Below, piece by piece: positions 3,110-53,625 of a DNA stretch of 64,000 nt. The stretch spans positions 78,631-142,630 of IMG/VR virus record IMGVR_UViG_3300045988_102159. One strand, written 5' to 3'. This stretch comes from a virus. The translations under genes and the position numbers were made by a program. Position 1 is the first letter of the stretch; every line of letters begins with the position of its first letter. The notes under the pieces were generated by a model that had not been told where the DNA came from, searched no databases, and saw nothing but the letters and a program-made list of their open reading frames with translations.

Positions 3110-4078
3110 AGGGGCTTCTCGCGTAACGGATTCAATTGTCGCAATCTGGGCGTTTAATTGGTCTGTAGAAACTCCAAGCGTAGCTGCCGCTGATGCAGCT
3201 TTCTGGGATGCTTCTGCCAACTCTCCAACATCCGCAGCAGAAATATTTGCTACGTTAGCCCAAGAGTCTAGTGCAGCATTAAGTTTATCAATATTATTAT
3301 CAAGACCATAAGCATTCATGTATGCTGTGATTTGGTCCGACGTTGTAGCAGTGTCTTGTTGAGAGGCATTAGCTAATTTAGTTGACATCTCCGCAAGCTG
3401 CTGAGATTTGTTTAGGTCAAAACCTTGCTGGCCGAAGATAAGGGTACTATTCGTCATAGCAACAGTTGTAGAGCCAAGAGCCTTTGCAGCTTCATTAGCC
3501 TGCTTAGCATACTGAACCATCGAGTCACGTGAATAGTCAGTAACAAGCATAATTTGTGTCAGCGAATCATCAAGGTCTTTTGCATATTCAACAGATTGAC
3601 GAATAGAATCAGTAACGCCGTTAAAGGCGCTTGACATAATACCCCAACGGACTGTGTTGCCCATTGTGTTAAATAATTTATCTACCATTGAGCTGGTACT
3701 TTTGATACCAGTATCAATTTTACCCAATTGAGCAAGAACGTCTGTAAAGGCAATTTTACCAGTAGACTCTGCCATAGAAAATGAATTTTGCAGATTACGT
3801 AATGAAAGTCCACTCTCATTTAGCTGGCTAGTCAACTTTGTCATATCGAGCATTCCAATTTTAGTGTTAAAGCTCGAATTTAATGCTTTCTGAAATTTTT
3901 GAATATTGTTGATAGCCGCAGAAGCTTGCGTATTATCAATAATATCCCGAGACTGCATTTCCTTTAGCTGAACAGAAACTTTATTAAGCTCAGTCTGTAA
4001 TTGAGTCAAACCAGAACGGTCTAATGTAGTTCGTAGATTATACTCAATAGTATTTGAATATTTACTAATGGTAATCAC
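3110..4078 (-). CDS. tail tape measure protein, exon 1
   Basis: GTG start at 4078. The ORF-track frame 3074..4078 is coiled-coil and Q/S/A-rich. The exon is taken to end ...ATIESVTREAP at 3110, before the intron core. Confidence 0.7.
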
Positions 4079-6894: not shown

Positions 6895-7151
6895 CATTAT
6901 GTTATCTTATAGTTTCCTATAAGTTCAGACTATATCTTCACCTCTAATAATAGAGGGTTTTCCACTTCGCTTTGTTATAAAGCTACTCCATAAAGGATAG
7001 TCGTTGAACGTACTCGTTCGCTGCTGATTACCAGTTAAGGCTTCCAGCAATTCAAAAAAGATTTTACAACGCATCGCTGCGCAGGTACCCGAACATCACT
7101 TTAAAAGACTACTAACAGACCAATTAAAGACTAATAGCAGACATTCTAGAC
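6895..7151 (-). mobile_element. group I intron 4 of structural gene
   Basis: The P1 helix pairs exon GTACCU with the internal guide GGGTAC, including a G.U pair at the splice site. Cores are TTGAATTGCTGGAAGCC, GTAATCAGCAGC, GTTCAACGACTATCC and AGATATAGTCTG. It ends ...ATAATG. Confidence 0.75.
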
Positions 7152-7777
7152 AGGTACTTGGATCGCCATTGTTCGCCATAGAGAACGTAAAGTTACTCTG
7201 GATTTTACCACGAGGAATGACGAATTCGGCAGGAAGGTCTACGCCAGTCTCTTCATCACGGAAAAGTGTAGACGCTTCAATGTAATAGTAACCAGCGAAG
7301 TTCTCAGCATCAATCTGCATCTCATAGGCTTCATCGTAATGAACCTCATAGCAGTCAATGCGGACGGTATCGCCAGCCTTTACAGCGGCATCTTGCTTGC
7401 TATCGCCGGGTTCATCGGCGGCAAGCTGGAAAGCGATAGTTTTACCTTCGGCTTGAATCTCACCATGATCGCCAAGGGTGGCGGCAGCTAGGGTCTTGCC
7501 ATCATTGATAACAAAGACCTGCTTGTCGGTGACAGCAGAAAGGTAATTAGCTTGAGCACCAGCACTATCAAGAGTAACAGGATAGATAGGAGCTTCTTTT
7601 GTAACGATGATAGTCGCGCCATTGCGGTCTTCATCGGTTAACTTGGCGATAATCTTATCGCCAGAGGTTTCGGCAACCATATCATATGTAGCATGGACAT
7701 AGATAGGAGTCTTATTTTCACCAGTTTTCTTACCGTGTACTAGACCAGCACCAGACAGCATAGCGAAACTGGTAGGA
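7152..7777 (-). CDS. major tail/tube-like structural protein, exon 4
   Basis: Uses the frame of ORF 7096..7782 from (L)PTSFAMLSGAG to ...NNGDPST. The ORF-track tail CLECLLLVFNW... is intron read-through. Confidence 0.75.
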
Positions 7778-8028
7778 CTCATTAGAGAGTCTTCAAGAGT
7801 GCTTTTTAAACATATATACTTTCATATATAAACAGACTATATCTTATCTTTCGATTTTCTCACTTCCTTGCTTACAGCAAGTACACCTATACAGGTTAGT
7901 CGTTGAACCATTTTATTTGGCTGCGGATTGTCTAATTCTTATGGATTATTACTATAAAATAGTACCATAAAACTCTAAAGAGGTTCCCGCAATTCAAGAA
8001 ATTTAATGACCCCCACATTTGTTAATTA
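7778..8028 (-). mobile_element. group I intron 3 of structural gene
   Basis: The P1 helix pairs exon GACCCU with the internal guide GGGGTC, including a G.U pair. Cores are TTGAATTGCGGGAACCTCTTTAGAG, TAGACAATCCGCAGCC, GGTTCAACGACTAACC and AGATATAGTCTG. The terminal G is at 7778. Confidence 0.75.
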
Positions 8029-8047
8029 AGGGTCAGAGTCTTTTCAC
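8029..8047 (-). CDS. major tail/tube-like structural protein, exon 3 (micro-exon, 19-21 nt)
   Basis: This is the only open frame between two intron cores: (G)GT GAA AAG ACT CTG ACC CT = GEKTLT. The 5' boundary is ambiguous by 2 nt. Confidence 0.55.
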
Positions 8048-8256
8048 CACATTTGTATTATCTGTATCTTTATATATACATACAGCTTAGACTATATCTT
8101 TATTCTTTTAGAATATCTTGCACTTCGGATTGTAGCATCCTACACCTTAAAGGTTAGTCGTTGAACTTTACTAAAAGTCTTAGCTGCGGATTCCCCTCGA
8201 AAGGGCTTTCCCGCAATTCACAAAATTTATTTCATTCTTAATGGTATACAAGCATT
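8048..8256 (-). mobile_element. group I intron 2 of structural gene
   Basis: The P1 helix is CTTAATG / CATTAAG. Cores are GTGAATTGCGGGAAAGCCC, GAATCCGCAGC, GTTCAACGACTAACC and AGATATAGTCTAAG. Boundaries are +/-2 nt. Confidence 0.65.
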
Positions 8257-8305
8257 AAGCGGCCTGAGCAGTGAAGAAACTTTCCCAGGCGATTAGACGA
8301 GGATT
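8257..8305 (-). CDS. major tail/tube-like structural protein, exon 2
   Basis: Reads NPRLIAWESFFTAQAA and continues exon 1 (...YAQGGKG|NPRLIAWE). It is preceded by the intron terminal G at 8306. Confidence 0.65.
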
Positions 8306-9328: not shown

Positions 9329-10099
9329 TCAGTAAATACCATCCATCCAATTATCAGGTTCATCCATCTTACTAACATCCATCATTGGAGTAGTAGCAAC
9401 TTTCTGATATAAGTCGTATGCCATTTTAAGTGTATACCTCTTAATACTGTCAAACAACTGAAATGGAGTATAGTTATATATGACATTAATATCAATTGCC
9501 AAACCAATAGAAAGAGCAGAAGCATAATTACCAAATATACTATTAGCTTTTTTCTTGTCTTTATCGCTCTTTATCTGATTTCGTATTTCTCGACCACGTT
9601 GAAGTTTGGCCGCAATCTCGGCAGCTGCGTCATTAGCAGGGTTAAATTCTTCTTCATACTTATCAGTGCCTACTGGTAAAAACAACTCTTTCAATGTAAT
9701 TCTGAAATTTTCAAAATTCATAGGATTAAGTTGCCCTACTATTGGCCCACTCTCCTGTACCCTAAAATTAATGCACCCAGCGTCATATTCAACTATATAA
9801 TCAGGGAAAATAAGGCCAAAAAGATTATCTACATTTCTTTTTGTATTTTCGTCCTGTTGGATGATTACTAATAATATTTGAAAATCGTCCATATACCCTA
9901 ATTGACTTTTGCCCACGTTTTTCATTTCTGCGGCAAGTTCTTTTGCCTTGACAAAAAGCTCAACGGACATAAGAAACGAATCTTCACCAAAAGCGCAAAT
10001 ATCTTTAATAGACGGCTGCGAGATAGCAATATTAGCTCCCGCAACCGTCACTGGCATTCCAGAAAGATATTTACCTAAATCTCCTTGTAACTCTGACAT
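9329..10099 (-). CDS. hypothetical structural protein
   Basis: 256-aa ORF packed in the late operon. Confidence 0.65.
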   Translation of the reverse strand: MSELQGDLGKYLSGMPVTVAGANIAISQPSIKDICAFGEDSFLMSVELFVKAKELAAEMKNVGKSQLGYMDDFQILLVIIQQDENTKRNVDNLFGLIFPDYIVEYDAGCINFRVQESGPIVGQLNPMNFENFRITLKELFLPVGTDKYEEEFNPANDAAAEIAAKLQRGREIRNQIKSDKDKKKANSIFGNYASALSIGLAIDINVIYNYTPFQLFDSIKRYTLKMAYDLYQKVATTPMMDVSKMDEPDNWMDGIY

Positions 10100-49540: not shown

Positions 49541-50056
49541 TTACTCTCCAGTCTCAATCTTCTTTATCTGAACATCGAGCCAAATGTCGTGGATATTGAC
49601 AGGAGTAAGGTTATTCGTGTCAACACCAACGTGATACGTCCAATCAACAATGCCCTTTGGAGCCGCATCATGGACATGACCGTACAGAATGATATTGGCA
49701 CTGTCTCCGCGCATTTCCTCGGGTCGCTCGTGAATCATAATGAAACTGACATCGTTGTAATCAATGCAAGATACCTTATTCTCAATAATCCAGCCGAGCT
49801 TTTCCATTTCAGCAATGCGCTTTTTGGTATCATGATTACCGGGAATTACATGAACCTTTCCATTGAGACGAGAACCATATTTAGCTACAGTCTCAAGCGG
49901 TCCCATGAAGCAATCACCAAGATGATAGACAGTATCATCAGGAGATACAACGGTATTCCAGTTTTTGACAATAGCTTCATTCATTTCTTCGACTGTATCA
50001 AACGGACGTGACTCTGGACAATACTTTATAATATTCTCATGACTAAAGTTAGTCAA
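49541..50056 (-). CDS. calcineurin-like metallophosphoesterase, main frame (lacks motif I)
   Basis: Motifs FSHENIIKYC..RPF, LGDCF, GNHD and GHVH. The ORF begins at TTG just after the position where motif I should be. Confidence 0.65.
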   Translation of the reverse strand: MTNFSHENIIKYCPESRPFDTVEEMNEAIVKNWNTVVSPDDTVYHLGDCFMGPLETVAKYGSRLNGKVHVIPGNHDTKKRIAEMEKLGWIIENKVSCIDYNDVSFIMIHERPEEMRGDSANIILYGHVHDAAPKGIVDWTYHVGVDTNNLTPVNIHDIWLDVQIKKIETGE

Positions 50057-50091
50057 TGCGAATCTGAGATAACCCAGATTGACATTGGCAT
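50053..50091 (-). CDS. 12-codon upstream frame MPMSIWVISDSH carrying the phosphoesterase motif I (D-x-H)
   Basis: TTGGAGGTGA RBS and ATG at 50091. It stops at a TGA that overlaps the TTG of the main frame, and is offset by -1. Confidence 0.5.
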   Translation of the reverse strand: MPMSIWVISDSH

Positions 50092-50104
50092 CACCTCCAA
50101 TGAA

Positions 50105-51100
50105 CTATACATAAGACCAAATATAGCCATATGCGGTATTTATTAATCCTCTAGCACAGTGTGCTATGCAAGTGCTATAAGAATTTTCTCTTTCGCCTGA
50201 TAAAAATTCCGCAGCATCAGCAACGCTATCGAATATACGTATCTGTTCTTTGGTATCTCTATCAATTTGAGCAACTTTTTTCTTTTTGCTATTTGCAATA
50301 AAGTCTTTATTAAAATTATCAAAAGAATCTACATAGCACCATCTATACCCATAAGCAGTTTTTTGTTTACCTCTACATACAGCAGAAATATTCATGCTTC
50401 TATCGCCGCCACCAACGCTATCTGCCGCTTCTTTTAAAGAATCAAATTTTTGTAAAATCTCACCGCTTGCTTTGTCAATTTTATAAACTTCTCGGCTGCT
50501 TATTTTAGAAGTTACTGCTTCTGCTGGAAGTATTGTAACATCATTTTGCCTGCAAGCCCTTTGGACAATAGTGCTTGCACATTTATACTTTCTACTTACT
50601 TCGTTTACATTCTGTATCTCTAGATATGCTTGCGCCAATTCTGAATAATCATACATTGGCTTTTTATGAACATCTATATTGTTTTCATGTAAAATTTTAG
50701 ACACTGTAAAAGCGGATACATCAACTTCTTTGCTAATATCTTTTATCGAATCATTTGTATTTATATACAAGTCCAATATTTGTTGTTTTTTCTCTTCGCT
50801 TAAAGGTGGTTTCCTAAAGGCGCTACCACCAATTGTCATGTTATATCCTTGATAATACGAATCATAAAAACTTATCCAGTATATTTCTCTATCATTTAAT
50901 TCTTCTTCTGGACATTCTTCAATTTCTTCAACAGAGAAACTATCTATACCATATTTTCTCATAGCTCTGTGAAGAGAATATTGACACCCTTTTATGGCAT
51001 CTCTTTTATGCTCGTTAAATCTTTTTTCTATTGTACCTATTGTTTGTCCAATATAAACTTTACCGTTTATATTATTTGTAATTTTATAAATGTAGCCCAA
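50105..51100 (-). CDS. GIY-YIG homing endonuclease (free-standing) with NUMOD/IENR-type repeats
   Basis: Reads GYIYKITNNINGKVYIGQT...RFNEH...YGYRW (twice). Confidence 0.8.
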   Translation of the reverse strand: MGYIYKITNNINGKVYIGQTIGTIEKRFNEHKRDAIKGCQYSLHRAMRKYGIDSFSVEEIEECPEEELNDREIYWISFYDSYYQGYNMTIGGSAFRKPPLSEEKKQQILDLYINTNDSIKDISKEVDVSAFTVSKILHENNIDVHKKPMYDYSELAQAYLEIQNVNEVSRKYKCASTIVQRACRQNDVTILPAEAVTSKISSREVYKIDKASGEILQKFDSLKEAADSVGGGDRSMNISAVCRGKQKTAYGYRWCYVDSFDNFNKDFIANSKKKKVAQIDRDTKEQIRIFDSVADAAEFLSGERENSYSTCIAHCARGLINTAYGYIWSYV

Positions 51101-51175
51101 TACTAACAGCTCCTATATTATATATAATATTTCGATTTCTTAAATATATTATAACATAATATATAGCCAATAGTC

Positions 51176-51207
51176 AATAAAAAAATAGGGACTCAAAAGA
51201 GTCCCTA
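51176..51207 (-). terminator. intrinsic terminator closing the tRNA/ncRNA array
   Basis: TAGGGACTC-aaaa-GAGTCCCTA followed by a T-run on the minus strand. Confidence 0.7.
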
Positions 51208-51222
51208 CAAAAATATCAATGT

Positions 51223-51300
51223 GTGCGGAAAAAGTTTATTCAGTATCGTGTGTTATAGAAAAAATTGGCTCTATGAAGTAACTGAATAATAATCACGCAC
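51223..51300 (-). ncRNA. structured RNA family member 1
   Basis: P1 is GTGCG/CGCAC and P2 is TTATTCAGT/ACTGAATAA. Conserved loops (plus-strand text) are GAAAAAGT, GAAGTA and TAATCA. Confidence 0.6.
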
Positions 51301-51356
51301 ATTTGCGCCTATATAGCTCGCACACTATATAGGCGAGAAAGGGGTTTACAAATAAT

Positions 51357-51434
51357 GGCAAGGAAAAATGTAAAGAGTGTTGGTGTGGTTGCATTCAAAT
51401 ATAAGACGAAGTAACTCTTTACTAATCACTTGCC
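51357..51434 (-). ncRNA. structured RNA family member 2
   Basis: P1 is GGCAAG/CTTGCC. P2 is AAAGAGT/ACTCTTT, a completely different sequence that still pairs. The loops are the same. Confidence 0.6.
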
Positions 51435-51446
51435 GCACAAGAGAAA

Positions 51447-51528
51447 GCGATACGGAAATAGGTGTTTCAGTTTGAGTAATCAGCTCAGATTGGAGATTTG
51501 AAGTATCTGAAACGTTATCACGTATCGC
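51447..51528 (-). ncRNA. structured RNA family member 3
   Basis: P1 is GCGATACG/CGTATCGC and P2 is GTTTCAG/CTGAAAC. Loops are GAAATAGGT, GAAGTA and GTTATCA. Confidence 0.6.
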
Positions 51529-51544
51529 CTACTTTAATAAAATA

Positions 51545-51648
51545 AATGCGGAAAAAGTTAAATCAGTAATGTGTACCGACACAGAACAGGAGTCGAACCT
51601 GCAAGCGCATTTTTCCAGAATGAAGTAACTGATTTATCATCACGCATT
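51545..51648 (-). ncRNA. structured RNA family member 4 (apical insert with T-arm-like GCAGGTTCGACTCCTGT)
   Basis: P1 is AATGCG/CGCATT and P2 is TAAATCAGT/ACTGATTTA. Confidence 0.6.
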
Positions 51649-51662
51649 ATAGTAAATAAGAT

Positions 51663-51741
51663 AAATACGGAAAAGTTAGATTCAGTATATAATATTAACA
51701 TACCAAAATTAATGAAGTAACTGAATCTTAATCACGCATTT
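51663..51741 (-). ncRNA. structured RNA family member 5
   Basis: P1 is AAATACG/CGCATTT, where the single mismatch becomes G.U on the minus strand. P2 is AGATTCAGT/ACTGAATCT. Confidence 0.6.
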
Positions 51742-51750
51742 TATAAACGT

Positions 51751-51835
51751 TGGTGCCGCATCTAGGTACCGCCCCTAGCCAGTCTAAGACAGAAGATTTA
51801 CAGTCTTCCCCTCGTCTTTAAAGGAATACTGCGGC
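51751..51835 (-). tRNA. tRNA-Tyr (GTA), class II, encoded CCA, non-canonical T-loop GGCGGTA
   Basis: Hand-folded. Acceptor is GCCGCA(G)/(A)TGCGGC. Anticodon arm is GAAGA-CTGTAAA-TCTTC. It has a long variable arm and a T-arm CTAGG-GGCGGTA-CCTAG. Confidence 0.65.
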
Positions 51836-51837
51836 AA

Positions 51838-51931
51838 TGGTACGCCGGGTCGGATTCGGACCGACATGCGGAATGATTACCGCCAAGGTCTTTTGAGGAC
51901 CCGCTCTCAAGGCCAATCGGAGTGCCGGCGC
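51838..51931 (-). tRNA. tRNA-Leu (CAA), class II, encoded CCA
   Basis: Hand-folded. Acceptor is GCGCCGG/CCGGCGT and the D-loop contains GG. Anticodon arm is GGGTC-CTCAAAA-GACCT. It has a long variable arm and a canonical T-arm GTCGG-TCCGAAT-CCGAC. Confidence 0.7.
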
Positions 51932-51935
51932 GTCT

Positions 51936-52385
51936 TTAATTTGTCTGTTTCTGAATTCCAAGCTGGTCAAAAAACTCGTCTGGAATAAACTTATCGTCCA
52001 AAGGCTGATAATCTTTCCAGACAATCAAAGGATACCAAGTCTTTGACCACTCGGTAAACTCAGCAAATTCATCATTATATCCAAAAGTAACAGCAAAACC
52101 GAACCAACTTGGCTTTACATGCGGAAAAGTCTTTTTGATAATTCCCTCGTTGTCAACAAAATCGCCGATACGACCGCAAATAGTACAAACGTTCCTATAA
52201 GCATAAGTCCATGTGCCAGCATACTTATCAAAGTAATTGATAACAATACTCTTACCATAAGTGTGCTTATGATTGGCTTTCTTCACTGTCTTTTTCTTTT
52301 TACGAGCTGGAGCATTGGCCGCATCATCGGGAATATAAGCATATTTAGTTGCCAACACTTCACCTTTATAGGGATACGAGGACAT
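51936..52385 (-). CDS. hypothetical protein
   Basis: Starts MSSYPYKGE with an AAAAGGAG RBS. 149 aa. Confidence 0.6.
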   Translation of the reverse strand: MSSYPYKGEVLATKYAYIPDDAANAPARKKKKTVKKANHKHTYGKSIVINYFDKYAGTWTYAYRNVCTICGRIGDFVDNEGIIKKTFPHVKPSWFGFAVTFGYNDEFAEFTEWSKTWYPLIVWKDYQPLDDKFIPDEFFDQLGIQKQTN

Positions 52386-52428
52386 CAAAGCTCCTTTTCT
52401 ACTTTTGGATAAGCCACACTTTGTTCTA

Positions 52429-52497
52429 TTGGAGCGGCAAGACTCGAACTTGCGACACGTTGAGTTAATAATATTCTACCAACTGAATTACACTCCA
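52429..52497 (-). ncRNA. tRNA-like element lacking an anticodon stem
   Basis: Acceptor is TGGAGTG/CGCTCCA. D-arm is ATTC-AGTTGGTA-GAAT and T-arm is GCAAG-TTCGAGT-CTTGC. The 19 nt in between cannot pair. Flanks extend the acceptor helix to ~14 bp. Confidence 0.45.
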
Positions 52498-52507
52498 ATA
52501 GAACGAA

Positions 52508-52663
52508 TTACTTAGACAAAAGGACATTATGAAGATAATCGTCAGCTTCTTCAAACGTATCAAAGCTCTTGATGATTTCAAAACGAGTAACAGAACAATC
52601 AGTATTGACACGAATTGAATAGATGCCGCAAGTCTTTTCACGACAGATAACGAACTTCTTCAT
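52508..52663 (-). CDS. 51-aa protein (below ORF-track cutoff)
   Basis: Starts MKKFVICREKTCGIYSIRV... with a CCAAGAGAAAGAAGGAAG leader and the promoter at 52693-52721. Confidence 0.5.
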   Translation of the reverse strand: MKKFVICREKTCGIYSIRVNTDCSVTRFEIIKSFDTFEEADDYLHNVLLSK

Positions 52664-52692
52664 AACTTCCTTCTTTCTCTTGGTTTATATAT

Positions 52693-52721
52693 ATTATATA
52701 ATAATATAAACCAGAAGTCAA
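52693..52721 (-). promoter_or_regulatory. promoter TTGACT-N17-TATAAT
   Basis: Read directly. Confidence 0.6.
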
Positions 52722-52726
52722 GAAAA

Positions 52727-52830
52727 AATATGCGGAAAAATTGAATTCAGTATATAAGTGCGGCGTACCGCAATCTTAAAATAAAATGCAAATATCTTCA
52801 TGAAGTAACTGAACCCTCGTCACGCATATT
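52727..52830 (-). ncRNA. structured RNA family member 6 (solitary copy)
   Basis: P1 is AATATGCG/CGCATATT. P2 forms 9 bp only as minus-strand RNA (GGGUUCAGU/ACUGAAUUC with two G.U pairs). Confidence 0.6.
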
Positions 52831-52840
52831 AAATTACTAA

Positions 52841-52981
52841 TTAAGAAAGAATGATACCCTGCTTTGCCTTGTTAATCTTGCGGCGAAGTTTGCGCATGAT
52901 GCCGACATTCTCTGAGTTCTTACCCTTACGATTGATAAGCATCTGATAACGCTGCTCCATCGTCTCGATTGACTGTGCCAT
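52841..52981 (-). CDS. 46-aa basic protein (below ORF-track cutoff)
   Basis: Reads MAQSIETMEQRYQMLINRKGKNSENVGIMRKLRRKINKAKQGIILS. It has a CCAAGAGAAAGG leader and the promoter at 53010-53039. Confidence 0.5.
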   Translation of the reverse strand: MAQSIETMEQRYQMLINRKGKNSENVGIMRKLRRKINKAKQGIILS

Positions 52982-53009
52982 ACTTTCTTACCTTTCTCTT
53001 GGTTTATAT

Positions 53010-53039
53010 ATTATATCAAATTATTTAACTGTTTGTCAA
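53010..53039 (-). promoter_or_regulatory. promoter TTGACA-N18-TATAAT
   Basis: Read directly. Confidence 0.6.
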
Positions 53040-53060
53040 ATAATTTTTTATAACAAAAAT

Positions 53061-53496
53061 TGGTCGCGTGGTGCCATTGACGCTATGGCTTAACAGAGCT
53101 TATGAGACTCCGTGAGATACTGACCTCCCACCCGCAGCTACAATAGTAGTTTTCACATCTGCCGAGGTTTGAAAACTACCAAAATATACCAGATTCCTCT
53201 TCCCCTAGGCGCTTCTTTTCAAGTATGAGCTGGCCGGATGCAGAGACGGCATATATAAAATCTTGCAAGCAAGATAATATAATCACGTGGACGGTTTCAA
53301 ATTGGGAAAACCGCCAACCCTTTAATCTATAATCCCTGCAAAAGATTATAGAAGTCGGGAGACATTTACCTTGCAGCGATAACCTCTCCCCAAGCATTGG
53401 ATATAACACAATCGCTAGGTACTATTCTTACCAATTAAAACTACGCCGTCCTTGTCGGACAGCGGTAGGAGTCGAACCTGCACTTTCACCATCACG
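53061..53496 (-). ncRNA. 436-nt structured RNA with tRNA-like ends (tmRNA-like architecture, identity unresolved)
   Basis: The 5' CGUG(A)UGGU pairs with the 3' ACCACGCG, which is followed by ACCA. A 3' T-arm GCCAU-AGCGUCA-AUGGC is present. The 5' GGUUCGACUCC resembles the tmRNA D-loop analog. There is at least one H-type pseudoknot and several 7-10-bp hairpins. Confidence 0.5.
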
Positions 53497-53509
53497 ATTT
53501 GTTAACTAT

Positions 53510-53538
53510 ATTATATAAAATTACTTGGCGTTTGTCAA
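53510..53538 (-). promoter_or_regulatory. promoter TTGACA-N17-TATAAT driving the 436-nt RNA
   Basis: -35 at 53533-53538 and -10 at 53510-53515. The RNA helix starts ~14 nt after the -10. Confidence 0.6.
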
Positions 53539-53556
53539 GTAATTTTTTTAACAGGC

Positions 53557-53625
53557 TGGCTCTTTCTGTGCTGCCCAGAAATTTTATGATTCAGAGTCAT
53601 ATGTTCTACTGTTGAACTAAGAGCC
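53557..53625 (-). tRNA. tRNA-Gln (CTG), non-canonical elbow
   Basis: Hand-folded. Acceptor is GGCTCTT/AAGAGCC. D-arm is GTTC-AACAGTA-GAAC, anticodon arm is TATGA-CTCTGAA-TCATA, and T-arm is TTCTG-GGCAGCA-CAGAA. No CCA is encoded. Confidence 0.55.

What the first reader, a model, noticed from the sequence alone, without database searches (positions are those of the whole stretch)
51223..51741. Array of five paralogous 78-104-nt structured RNAs packed against tRNA genes, with a sixth copy at 52727-52830
Six elements share one architecture. Read as plus-strand text it is: P1 (5-8 bp) - GAAAAAGT - P2 (7-9 bp) - variable apical region - GAAGTA - P2' - TAATCA - P1'.

The single-stranded blocks are conserved while the stems covary. 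P1 is GTGCG/CGCAC, GGCAAG/CTTGCC, GCGATACG/CGTATCGC, AATGCG/CGCATT or AATATGCG/CGCATATT. P2 is TTATTCAGT/ACTGAATAA, TAAATCAGT/ACTGATTTA, AGATTCAGT/ACTGAATCT, GTTTCAG/CTGAAAC, or the unrelated AAAGAGT/ACTCTTT.

The mismatches in copies 5 and 6 become G.U pairs only if the minus strand is the RNA. That is the strand of the adjacent tRNAs and of all flanking transcription.

Copies sit 10-20 nt apart, head to tail, directly upstream of tRNA-Tyr, like genes in a tRNA array. One apical insert contains a T-arm-like GCAGGTTCGACTCCTGT.

I could not fit them to a cloverleaf. They also do not match a hammerhead (no CUGANGA/GAAA core), an HDV-like nested pseudoknot, or a K-turn. T4 encodes two stable RNAs of unknown function in its tRNA cluster, which is the nearest analogy I know. 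Possible roles (speculative) are a processing scaffold, a protein or tRNA-enzyme decoy, or an anti-defence RNA.
Basis: seen in the sequence. Interest (0 to 1): 0.85.

Follow-up and report, generated by a model that had tools for sequence, protein, structure and literature searches.

The report
Phage Y RNA-like genes beside tRNAs
The six repeated structured RNAs are real, but they are not an unknown class: they are a divergent phage family of Y RNA-like RNAs, the small partner RNAs of the ring-shaped RNA-binding protein Ro60, here multiplied and placed in a tRNA operon away from the Ro60 gene.

Summary
Six paralogous 77-104-nt elements lie on the minus strand at 51222-51741 and 52727-52830. They share one clamp: P1 / G-UGAU-NR / P2 / UACUUC / variable apex / P2' / N4-UUUCC / P1'.

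A covariance model built from them finds more than 150 further matches to the model in uncultivated phage contigs. All 14 modelled pairs covary, and 94.8% of cells are paired against 64% when shuffled. No Rfam family matches the window copies.

The wider family shows what they are.
- In many phage lineages, 2-4 of these RNAs sit immediately upstream of a TROVE/Ro60 gene on the same strand (62 of 62 hits).
- Some carry a circularly permuted tRNA-like domain (V, T-arm, closed acceptor, D-arm). These give full-length but sub-threshold matches to Rfam YrlA.
- The conserved UUAC corresponds to the published YrlA "YUAY" motif.

Every near-complete close relative of this phage encodes the Ro60 gene. 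By synteny it lies about 5 kb beyond the window's right end.

The window copies are therefore Y RNA-like (YrlA/YrlB-type) RNAs. Most have lost the tRNA-like module, and copy 4 keeps a T-arm vestige. They are co-transcribed with tRNAs.

Verdict: a new variant of a known kind. Binding to Ro60 is inferred, not shown.

The parts
51222..51300 (-). Copy 1. Y RNA-like clamp with a plain apical hairpin. It is the last gene of the operon.
   Evidence: R1 73.9 bits. The fold gives P1 and P2 with z = -4.2.
51306..51335 (-). Perfect 11-bp hairpin between copies 2 and 1, with no U-tract after it. Role unknown.
   Evidence: Read from the sequence.
51357..51433 (-). Copy 2. Same clamp, but P2 has an unrelated sequence (GUAAAGAGU/ACUCUUUAC).
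   Evidence: R1 69.9 bits. Orthologues in L059, L072, L105 and L112 carry a longer apex.
51447..51528 (-). Copy 3. It has an 8-bp P1 and reads AGAUACUUC where the other copies read AGUUACUUC.
   Evidence: R1 75 bits. Fold z = -4.4.
51545..51647 (-). Copy 4. The clamp carries a vestigial tRNA-like module: V region, T-arm GCAGG-UUCGACU-CCUGU, then a closed 5-bp acceptor-like minihelix. There is no D-arm.
   Evidence: R1 76.8 bits; sequence. The module order matches YrlA-type relatives.
51664..51741 (-). Copy 5. It has a plain apical hairpin with a conserved UUUUGGUAUG loop, and follows the Tyr-like tRNA by about 10 nt.
   Evidence: R1 84.7 bits, the best hit. P1 has a G.U pair only on the minus strand.
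52727..52830 (-). Copy 6. It has a GC-rich apical hairpin. It lies at the 3' end of the preceding small operon and is followed by UUUUUUC and the next promoter.
   Evidence: R1 72.8 bits. Two G.U pairs in P2 are intermediates between orthologues.
51750..51836 (-). tRNA-Tyr(GUA)-like gene with encoded CCA and a non-canonical T-loop (GGCGGUA).
   Evidence: Fold. Not called by ARAGORN or Rfam.
51838..51931 (-). tRNA-Leu(CAA).
   Evidence: ARAGORN.
52429..52497 (-). tRNA in the same transcription unit.
   Evidence: Rfam tRNA, 43.4 bits.
52693..52721 (-). Sigma-70-type promoter (TTGACT-17-TATAAT) of the unit that carries two small ORFs, three tRNAs and copies 5 to 1.
   Evidence: 11 of 12 consensus positions.
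51185..51208 (-). Intrinsic terminator immediately after copy 1.
   Evidence: 10-bp stem followed by a T7 run.

Best explanation
The six elements are genes for Y RNA-like small RNAs, of the bacterial and phage YrlA/YrlB type. They are the partner RNAs of a Ro60 (TROVE-domain) protein that this phage lineage encodes about 15-18 kb from the array. By synteny that gene lies about 5 kb beyond the window's right end.

Shown:
- They form a basal clamp, and both of its helices covary. The 5' and 3' ends pair as P1. An invariant G-C pair closes P1. Then come a bulged U, a possible invariant G-C and A-U extension of P1 (seen in the MFE folds; it cannot be tested by covariation), an internal loop, P2 and the invariant UACUUC.
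- Homologues of this clamp sit immediately upstream of Ro60 genes, on the same strand, in many phage lineages.
- Some homologues carry the permuted tRNA-like domain that defines YrlA.

Inferred:
- The invariant 5'-strand block G-UGAU and the bulged helix are the Ro60 docking site. They occupy the position of GGUCCGA in animal Y RNAs and GNCGAAN0-1G in YrlA.
- The variable apex is the effector or tether module. By analogy with D. radiodurans Rsr/Y RNA/PNPase and with phage phiLo Ro60/Yrl/host PNPase, each paralogue would gate Ro60's cavity or tether Ro60 to another factor such as a host exoribonuclease.
- The resulting RNP would serve tRNA/ncRNA quality control, RNA turnover or counter-defence during infection.
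- The five tandem copies are made as part of a polycistronic transcript (promoter 52721, two small ORFs, three tRNAs, copies 5 to 1, terminator 51208). They are presumably released by the enzymes that process the tRNAs.
For: Structure: 14 of 14 modelled pairs change on both sides in 107 distinct sequences. 94.8% of cells are paired against 64.1% in shuffles and 29-51% when the partners are slid.

Rfam YrlA (RF02553): it aligns full-length to family members with the same boundaries as my model. L143:2056-2193 scores 34.8 bits (E 2e-4), L190:5195-5311 scores 34.3, and L191 and L133 also hit. In those alignments P1, the 5' loop, P2, UUAC (matching the model's CUAc), the tRNA-like domain and the 3' loop all correspond.

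Published YrlA features are a 5' motif, YUAY, and the order V-T-AS-D, with the RNAs encoded next to Rsr, including in phages (PMC4201824).

Ro60 genes next to the RNAs:
- TROVE-domain proteins of about 490 aa lie directly beside family RNAs in L190, L179, L191, L133, L127, L159, L183, L151, L130 and L131. Pfam TROVE gives E 1e-15 to 1e-16 for the three scanned (L190, L179, L191). The others are tblastn relatives of those three.
- A profile of these proteins matches phiLo Ro60 9KOP (E 1.4e-60, full length), Xenopus Ro60 1YVP (5e-20), human RO60 and Rsr 2NVO.
- In 78 Ro60 loci, 62 of 62 model hits are on the Ro60 strand. Nearly all lie within about 1.6 kb upstream, most within about 600 nt.
- Clusters typically hold one YrlA-type RNA plus plain ones.

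The window's lineage: about 40 of 45 contigs with family RNAs have a detectable Ro60 gene (my tally). This includes the closest relative, contig 3300045988_113526, which is 97.8% identical over window 49842-59807. Mapping through L010 puts the gene about 5.3 kb past window position 64000.

Operon layout.
Against: - No Ro60 gene lies inside the window, so linkage for this phage rests on synteny with relatives.
- In the window's lineage no family RNA is found next to Ro60. The RNAs could therefore have acquired a Ro60-independent role.
- The window copies do not hit Rfam YrlA at all. Even the best relatives score only half the gathering threshold.
- The canonical CGAA-type Ro60-binding motif is absent; GUGAU stands in its place.
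- Five of the six window copies lack any tRNA-like module.
- No expression, binding or processing data exist for this family.
Confidence: 0.8

Rival explanations
1. The clamp is a tRNA-operon processing element. It would be a self-cleaving ribozyme or a leader-trailer scaffold that directs RNase P, Z or E to release whatever sits in its apex, independently of Ro60.
For: - The copies lie head to tail within a tRNA transcription unit.
- In relatives the apex can be a complete, normal-order tRNA scoring up to 63.9 bits in Rfam (L162:1047-1119 within L162:1019-1149).
- In one embedded tRNA (L162:1478-1604) the 5' end appears to overlap the conserved UACUUC (my reading of the sequence).
Against: - No ribozyme family hits, even at E<=10.
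- P1 and P2 are simply nested, so the double pseudoknot of HDV-like or theta ribozymes is impossible. The hammerhead core is absent.
- Most members, including five of the six in the window, carry only a small hairpin, leaving nothing to process.
- This reading does not explain the strict same-strand position upstream of Ro60 or the YrlA-like layout.
Confidence: 0.07
2. The RNAs are tRNA-mimic decoys or sponges that act without Ro60. For example, they could soak up host tRNA-targeting defence nucleases or tRNA-modifying enzymes. The window's lineage would have uncoupled them from Ro60.
For: - In this lineage the RNAs moved into the tRNA cluster about 17 kb from Ro60.
- The window encodes a T4 Rnl1-type RNA ligase, which points to a tRNA-damage conflict.
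- A phage Ro60-like protein counters the ppl defence in Bas63 (bioRxiv 10.1101/2024.10.10.617714).
Against: - Five of the six window copies have no tRNA-like part. What is conserved is the clamp, that is, the presumed Ro60 site.
- Every near-complete relative retains Ro60.
Confidence: 0.1
3. The elements are non-functional repeats: decayed tRNA or Y RNA pseudogenes, or DNA-level hairpins such as recombination sites or terminators.
For: - The apices are highly variable.
- A GIY-YIG homing endonuclease gene lies next to the array.
- Copy 6 is followed by a U-run.
Against: - Compensatory changes occur at all 14 pairs across 107 distinct sequences.
- The single-stranded blocks are invariant in lineages whose Ro60 proteins are only 26-50% identical.
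- G.U pairs outnumber A.C by 31 to 17 on the sense strand.
- Orientation relative to Ro60 is strict.
Confidence: 0.03

Closest known systems
Bacterial/phage YrlA and YrlB Y RNAs (Rfam RF02553; Chen et al. 2014, PMC4201824)
   Same: - Size of 70-140 nt.
- The 5' and 3' ends pair into a long stem interrupted by a bulge and an internal loop.
- A YUAY motif (here UUAC) sits at the exit of the upper stem.
- In some members there is a permuted tRNA-like domain in the order V, T-arm, closed acceptor, D-arm.
- Several paralogues per locus, with and without the tRNA-like domain.
- Encoded next to a Ro60/Rsr gene.
   Different: - The 5'-strand motif is G-UGAU-NR rather than GNCGAAN0-1G.
- Scores are far below the Rfam threshold, and the window copies score nothing.
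- In the window, five of six copies replace the tRNA-like domain with a small hairpin.
- There are six copies per genome.
- They sit in a tRNA operon about 17 kb from the Ro60 gene.
- Some relatives carry a complete, non-permuted tRNA in the apex.
Thermus phage phiLo Ro60 with Yrl1/Yrl2 (PMC12135203; PDB 9KOP, 9L5Y)
   Same: - A phage-encoded Ro60 with two or more Y RNA-like genes just upstream.
- The phage Ro60 profile from this family matches phiLo Ro60 at E 1.4e-60 over its full length.
- A proposed recruitment of host PNPase gives a mechanistic template.
   Different: - phiLo Yrls were defined by CGAA motifs, whereas these RNAs have GUGAU, UACUUC and UUUCC.
- The window-lineage protein is only about 24% identical to phiLo Ro60.
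- Binding has been shown for phiLo and has not been shown here.
T4 stable RNAs (species 1 and 2, rnaC/rnaD) in the T4 tRNA cluster
   Same: Small non-tRNA stable RNAs of unknown function, co-transcribed with phage tRNAs.
   Different: - No sequence or structure comparison was possible with these tools.
- As far as I know, T4 has no Ro60 gene.
- The present family has a clear protein-partner candidate.
D. radiodurans Yrn1 / animal Y RNAs
   Same: - A bulged basal helix serves as the Ro60 site, with a variable effector loop.
- Yrn1 has its T and D arms in the opposite order to YrlA (PMC4201824). Both orders occur within the present family.
   Different: No detectable sequence similarity, and no Rfam Y_RNA hit.

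Membership tests
Y RNA (Ro60-associated ncRNA) | Physically bound by Ro60/Rsr | not testable with these tools
   This needs RIP or EMSA. The only proxy is genomic linkage, covered in the next row.
Y RNA (Ro60-associated ncRNA) | Encoded next to or together with a Ro60/TROVE gene | tested here: met
   For the family, 62 of 62 model hits in 78 Ro60 loci are on the Ro60 strand, nearly all within about 1.6 kb upstream. TROVE identity is confirmed by Pfam and PDB searches. For the window's own lineage the gene is on the same genome but 15-18 kb away and outside the window. For this phage the feature is therefore met only by synteny.
Y RNA (Ro60-associated ncRNA) | 80-130-nt RNA whose 5' and 3' ends form a long stem with a bulge and internal loop, plus a variable large loop | tested here: met
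   The six window copies are 77-104 nt. P1 and P2 are supported by covariation at 14 of 14 pairs. A bulged U and an internal loop lie between them.
YrlA (Rfam RF02553) | Score at or above the Rfam gathering threshold (69 bits) | tested here: not met
   The window copies give no hit at E<=10. The best relatives score 34.8, 34.3, 28.9 and 26.4 bits.
YrlA (Rfam RF02553) | tRNA-like domain in the order V, T-arm, closed acceptor stem, D-arm | tested here: inconclusive
   Present in family members L133:13350-13488, L190:5179-5313, L143:2057-2190, L121:11170-11307, L191:6672-6808, L219, L258 and others. In the window only copy 4 keeps the V region, T-arm and closed minihelix. Copies 1, 2, 3, 5 and 6 have none, which makes them YrlB-like.
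YrlA (Rfam RF02553) | 5' motif GNCGAAN0-1G (the CGAA Ro60-binding motif) | tested here: not met
   The equivalent position reads G-UGAU-NR, which is invariant GUGA(U/C) in the window lineage and GUG(A/G/U) in distant members.
YrlA (Rfam RF02553) | Conserved YUAY at the start of the V loop | tested here: met
   UUAC lies within the near-invariant (A/G)GUUACUUC. It aligns to the model's CUAc in the cmscan alignment.
Self-cleaving ribozymes (hammerhead, HDV-like/theta, twister, pistol, hatchet, hairpin) | Match to the family's covariance model or core motifs | tested here: not met
   No Rfam ribozyme hit at E<=10 over 51100-53900. The strictly nested P1 and P2 exclude an HDV-type double pseudoknot. 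Theta ribozymes may not be in Rfam, so for them only the topology argument applies.
tRNA | Cloverleaf recognised by ARAGORN or Rfam tRNA | tested here: not met
   None of the six copies is called.

The most novel reading that the evidence does not exclude
The conserved clamp may be a portable Ro60-docking handle that phages fuse to interchangeable cargo RNAs. The cargoes seen are plain hairpins, T-arm minihelices, permuted tRNA mimics and even complete normal-order tRNAs. On this reading the phage Ro60 RNP would be a programmable platform. It could cage, proof-read or deliver phage tRNAs, or present a panel of decoys and tethers to different host nucleases and defence systems. The window's six-gene array would be such a panel, expressed stoichiometrically with the tRNAs and evolving separately from the Ro60 gene.
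Probability: 0.15. Interest if true: 0.8.

Novelty: new variant of a known kind. Interest (0 to 1): 0.55.

Why it matters
Ro60/Y RNA particles are conserved from bacteria to humans, and their function is still poorly understood. Phage versions have only recently been studied: the phiLo structure in 2025, and a Ro60-like anti-defence gene in Bas63.

This family adds several things.
- It gives a large, covariation-rich set of phage Y RNA-like sequences that current Rfam models miss.
- It defines an alternative candidate Ro60-docking motif (bulged helix G-UGAU/UUUCC plus UACUUC).
- It shows that one clamp carries very different apical modules, including both orientations of tRNA-like domains and whole tRNAs. 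This bears directly on how Y RNAs evolved from tRNAs.
- It shows that Y RNA genes can be amplified to six copies and embedded in tRNA operons far from Ro60. Searches limited to Ro60 neighbourhoods therefore under-count them.

It also explains part of the unannotated space in phage tRNA clusters.

Tried and rejected
- Rfam at gathering and at E<=10 over the locus gave nothing for the six copies.
- blastn of the locus against 50,697 GenBank phages gave only a tRNA hit. No cultured relative exists.
- The first viral scan, with a 14-base motif, was mostly chance hits. Only about 10 of 119 loci were real.
- C/D-box K-turn, hammerhead, hairpin-ribozyme loop and HDV topologies were compared by eye against the consensus and rejected. 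The second strand has no GA, G8 and GAAA are not conserved, and the helices are strictly nested.
- I considered a tRNA intron or a split or permuted tRNA gene needing circularisation. This was rejected because both acceptor strands lie in the same element joined by a 4-7-nt loop, and most members have no tRNA part.
- The search for a TROVE gene inside the window was negative. Pfam was run on 19 of the 29 ORFs of 180 aa or more, plus the 150-aa ORF in the operon, and tblastn with three phage Ro60 proteins covered the whole window.
- The search for family RNAs or YrlA next to Ro60 in the window's lineage was negative.
- Rfam at gathering threshold on 17 distant Ro60 loci found no YrlA above threshold, only tRNA arrays and one tmRNA.
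- A scan of 185,579 bacterial and archaeal genomes gave almost only chance matches. Of the 100 of 120 matched loci that I checked with the model, only three (L374, L391, L383) hold matches at E<=0.1. I did not look up their organism names.
- I fetched part of Listeria phage P100 to link to the published abundant RNAs upstream of an Rsr-like gene (PMC12282133). I did not pursue it, because the record lacks product names and its Ro60-like protein is too divergent for tblastn.
Full report
**1. The observation**

The six elements are present as described.

- On the plus strand, the motif GAAGTANCTGAN7TCAC (allowing up to 2 mismatches) occurs six times in the window and nowhere else. Shuffles give 0.44 on average, and none of 100 shuffles reaches six.
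- Read on the minus strand, every copy has the same layout: P1 (5-8 bp), G-UGAU-NR, P2 (7-9 bp, ending AGU or AGA), UACUUC, a variable apex of 20-60 nt, P2', four variable bases then UUUCC, and P1'.
- MFE folds of the minus strand recover P1 and P2 in all six. They also suggest that the invariant GA of UGAU pairs with the UC of UUUCC, leaving a bulged U.
- No ORF explains the conservation. Only two short overlapping ORFs, on opposite strands, cross copies 4 and 5.

**2. Strand and transcription**

Everything around the locus is on the minus strand.

- A strong sigma-70-type promoter at 52721-52693 is followed by a 51-aa ORF, a tRNA (52497-52429), a 150-aa ORF, tRNA-Leu (51931-51838) and a Tyr-GUA-like tRNA (51836-51750). 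Copies 5, 4, 3 and 2 come next, then a perfect 11-bp hairpin, copy 1, and an intrinsic terminator at 51208-51185.
- Copy 6 closes the preceding small operon: promoter 53039-53010, then a 46-aa ORF, then copy 6.
- The array is therefore co-transcribed with the tRNAs and lies downstream of them.
- The plus-strand mismatches in copies 5 and 6 are G.U pairs on the minus strand.
- Orthologues of copy 6 form a series. It runs GAAUUC/GAAUUC, then GGGUUC/GAAUUC in the window (two wobbles), then GGGUUC/GACCCC. This is the expected path of compensatory change in an RNA of this polarity.
- Across the family, G.U pairs outnumber A.C by 31 to 17 in the stems.

**3. The family**

No Rfam family matches any copy, even at E<=10. 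No GenBank phage resembles the locus.

I built a covariance model of the six copies (R1) and ran two motif scans of IMG/VR. Together they recovered syntenic arrays of five plus one copies in about 25 contigs that share 87-98% nucleotide identity with the window in this region. They also recovered progressively divergent members in other large phage contigs, more than 150 matches to the model in all.

On 107 distinct sequences, all 14 modelled pairs show changes on both sides. 94.8% of cells are paired, against 64.1% in column shuffles and 29-51% when partners are slid by 1-3 columns. That alignment was fitted to the model, which favours the structure. The margin is large, however, and the pair types are diverse (for example UA, AU and GC at about a third each at several P2 positions).

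The single-stranded blocks G-UGA(U/C), UACUUC and UUYCC persist in the most distant members.

**4. What the apex can be**

The clamp carries very different inserts.

- Plain hairpins: window copies 1, 2, 3, 5 and 6.
- A T-arm followed by a closed minihelix: window copy 4, L090:1295 and L069:1805.
- A circularly permuted tRNA-like domain. Its order is an anticodon-like or V hairpin, T-arm GGUUCGAAUCC, acceptor 3' strand, a 4-7-nt loop, acceptor 5' strand, then D-arm AGCUCAAUGGUAGAGC. Examples are L133:13350-13488, L190:5179-5313, L143:2057-2190, L121:11170-11307 and L191:6672-6808.
- In a few cases, a complete normal-order tRNA. L162:1019-1149 contains an Rfam tRNA of 63.9 bits. L245:2111-2242 is another case.

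**5. Identification as Y RNA-like**

The permuted members give full-length matches to Rfam YrlA (RF02553, 'Y RNA-like'), but below threshold. L143:2056-2193 scores 34.8 bits (E 2e-4), L190 scores 34.3, L191 28.9 and L133 26.4, against a gathering score of 69.

In the cmscan alignment the correspondence runs end to end:

| This family | YrlA model |
|---|---|
| P1 | basal stem |
| UGAUGA | aAUGC loop |
| P2 | upper stem |
| UUAC | CUAc |
| apex | T, closed acceptor and D arms |
| 3' loop | 3' loop |

Chen et al. 2014 (PMC4201824) describe exactly this plan for YrlA. They report a 5' motif GNCGAAN0-1G, a conserved YUAY that begins the V loop, then V, T, a closed 'acceptor' stem-loop and D. They note companion RNAs (YrlB) that share the Ro60-binding motif, that the RNAs are encoded next to Rsr, and that they occur in phages.

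**6. The protein partner**

I took the annotated Ro-like protein of mycobacteriophage Bxz1 and ran tblastn against the loci held so far. It hit ORFs of about 490 aa lying directly beside family RNAs.

- Pfam assigns three of these ORFs to TROVE (E 1e-15 to 1e-16), with a weak Ro60 vWA domain in two of them.
- A profile of ten of them matches Thermus phage phiLo Ro60 (9KOP/9L5Y) at E 1.4e-60 over its full length. It also matches Xenopus Ro60 (5e-20), human RO60 (9e-17) and D. radiodurans Rsr (3e-15).
- A scan of IMG/VR with that profile found 536 relatives. In the 78 loci kept, R1 finds 62 matches. All 62 are on the Ro60 strand, and nearly all lie within about 1.6 kb upstream of the start codon, most within about 600 nt. 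This includes loci whose Ro60 is only 26-37% identical to the query.
- The clusters hold 2-4 RNAs, typically one YrlA-type plus plain ones. In L216, for example, RNAs at 3473, 3601 (T+D), 3767 and 3875 precede Ro60 at 4001.

This is the arrangement reported for bacterial YrlA/YrlB and for phiLo Yrl1/Yrl2 (PMC12135203).

**7. The window's own lineage**

No TROVE gene lies in the window. Every near-complete close relative has one on the same contig, including the nearest (3300045988_113526, 97.8% identical over window 49842-59807).

Mapping through contig 3300045988_092858 puts window position 64000 at contig position 128,846. The Ro60 gene lies at 122,137-123,558. That is about 5.3 kb beyond the window's end, on the opposite strand, and 15-18 kb from the array.

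In this lineage no family RNA or YrlA-like RNA lies next to Ro60. The Y RNA-like genes therefore appear to have been relocated into the tRNA operon and amplified there. This is plausible because Ro60 genes in other phages sit directly downstream of tRNA arrays. By my tally, about 40 of 45 RNA-bearing contigs have a detectable Ro60 gene. The remainder are fragments or fell outside the 80 loci kept.

**8. Mechanism**

Shown:
- The fold of the clamp.
- Its conservation.
- Its genomic coupling to Ro60.
- The homology of layout with YrlA.
- Co-transcription with tRNAs.

Inferred:
- The bulged helix, with its invariant 5' strand G-UGAU, is the Ro60 docking site. It takes the place of GGUCCGA and the CGAA motifs. 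Ro60 mainly reads the 5' strand of a bulged helix (PMC4201824).
- The apex is the effector module.
- The RNP gates Ro60's cavity or tethers it to a host exoribonuclease such as PNPase. This has been shown for D. radiodurans and, in vitro, for phiLo (PMC12135203).

The biological purpose is open. It could be quality control or repair of the phage's own tRNAs, remodelling of host RNA, or counter-defence. On repair, the window also encodes a T4 Rnl1-type RNA ligase at 57692-58642. On counter-defence, a Ro60-like protein of phage Bas63 counters the ppl system and lies beside tRNA genes (bioRxiv 10.1101/2024.10.10.617714). Abundant RNAs upstream of an Rsr-like gene were also seen in a Listeria phage (PMC12282133).

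**9. Rivals**

- A processing ribozyme or scaffold fits the tRNA context and the members that embed a tRNA. It does not fit the empty-apex majority, the nested topology or the Ro60 linkage.
- A Ro60-independent decoy role is possible for the relocated array. What is conserved, though, is the clamp, not tRNA mimicry.
- Junk repeats are excluded by the covariation.

**10. Novelty**

Phage Y RNAs next to Ro60 have been known since 2014. Several things are new.

- This is a large subfamily that Rfam does not recognise.
- The docking motif differs from the known ones.
- The apices are modular, including both tRNA orientations and whole tRNAs within a single family.
- The genes are amplified to six copies in a tRNA operon remote from Ro60.

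I rate it a new variant of a known kind, with moderate interest.

Noticed in passing
window 53556-53626 (-), 53748-53818 (-), 51750-51836 (-), 51838-51931 (-): The phage tRNAs have non-canonical T-loops. Two (Gln-CUG-like and Thr-UGU-like) read GGCAGCA, the Tyr-GUA-like one reads GGCGGUA, and tRNA-Leu reads UCCGAAU, instead of UUCGAAU. ARAGORN misses three of the four and Rfam misses two. They might be tRNAs adapted to evade T-loop- or elbow-recognising host factors.
   Followed up: partly
window 6906-7137, 7813-8038, 8068-8286 (-): Three group I introns lie within 1.4 kb (Rfam 61-80 bits). A 228-aa ORF (7096-7782) lies between and inside them, so a heavily intron-invaded gene is likely here.
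   Followed up: no
L162:1019-1149 and 1478-1604; L213:603-733 and 1068-1194; L121:5879-6005; L245:2111-2242; L292:2634-2754; L374:2967-3082: Some members of the same RNA family have an apex that is a complete or nearly complete tRNA in normal (non-permuted) order, with an anticodon loop. Other members carry the permuted YrlA-type domain. Both orientations therefore coexist under one clamp, which suggests repeated capture or exchange of tRNA modules.
   Followed up: partly
L121:8971-9618 (+): A ROOL RNA (Rfam 298 bits) lies immediately after family member L121:8845-8957 and before a sub-threshold YrlA-like hit at 9638-9741, inside a large tRNA array. ROOL, Y RNA-like RNAs and tRNAs are thus clustered in one phage locus.
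   Followed up: no
window 50105-51100 (-): A GIY-YIG/NUMOD homing-endonuclease gene with its own promoter (51177-51148) lies directly downstream of the array's terminator. It could have helped mobilise or rearrange this region.
   Followed up: no
window 57692-58642 (-) and 60840-61814 (-): A T4 Rnl1-type RNA ligase (Pfam E 2.5e-42) and a PhoH-like ATPase lie between the RNA array and the inferred Ro60 gene. This may be an RNA-repair neighbourhood.
   Followed up: no
window 51306-51335 (-): A perfect 11-bp hairpin (CGCCUAUAUAG/CUAUAUAGGCG) lies between copies 2 and 1, with no U-tract after it. It may be a processing or stability element.
   Followed up: no
window 52727-52830 and 52693-52721 (-): Copy 6 sits alone at the 3' end of a one-ORF operon. 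A U-run and the next promoter follow it directly, so it may double as that unit's terminator or 3' stabiliser.
   Followed up: no
L266, L271, L275, L288, L264 (Ro60 at about 4001 or as listed): In distant phage lineages the Ro60 gene lies directly downstream of long tRNA arrays on the same strand. L277 has a tmRNA upstream. No Rfam YrlA reaches threshold in these loci, so further unrecognised Y RNA variants may be hidden there.
   Followed up: no
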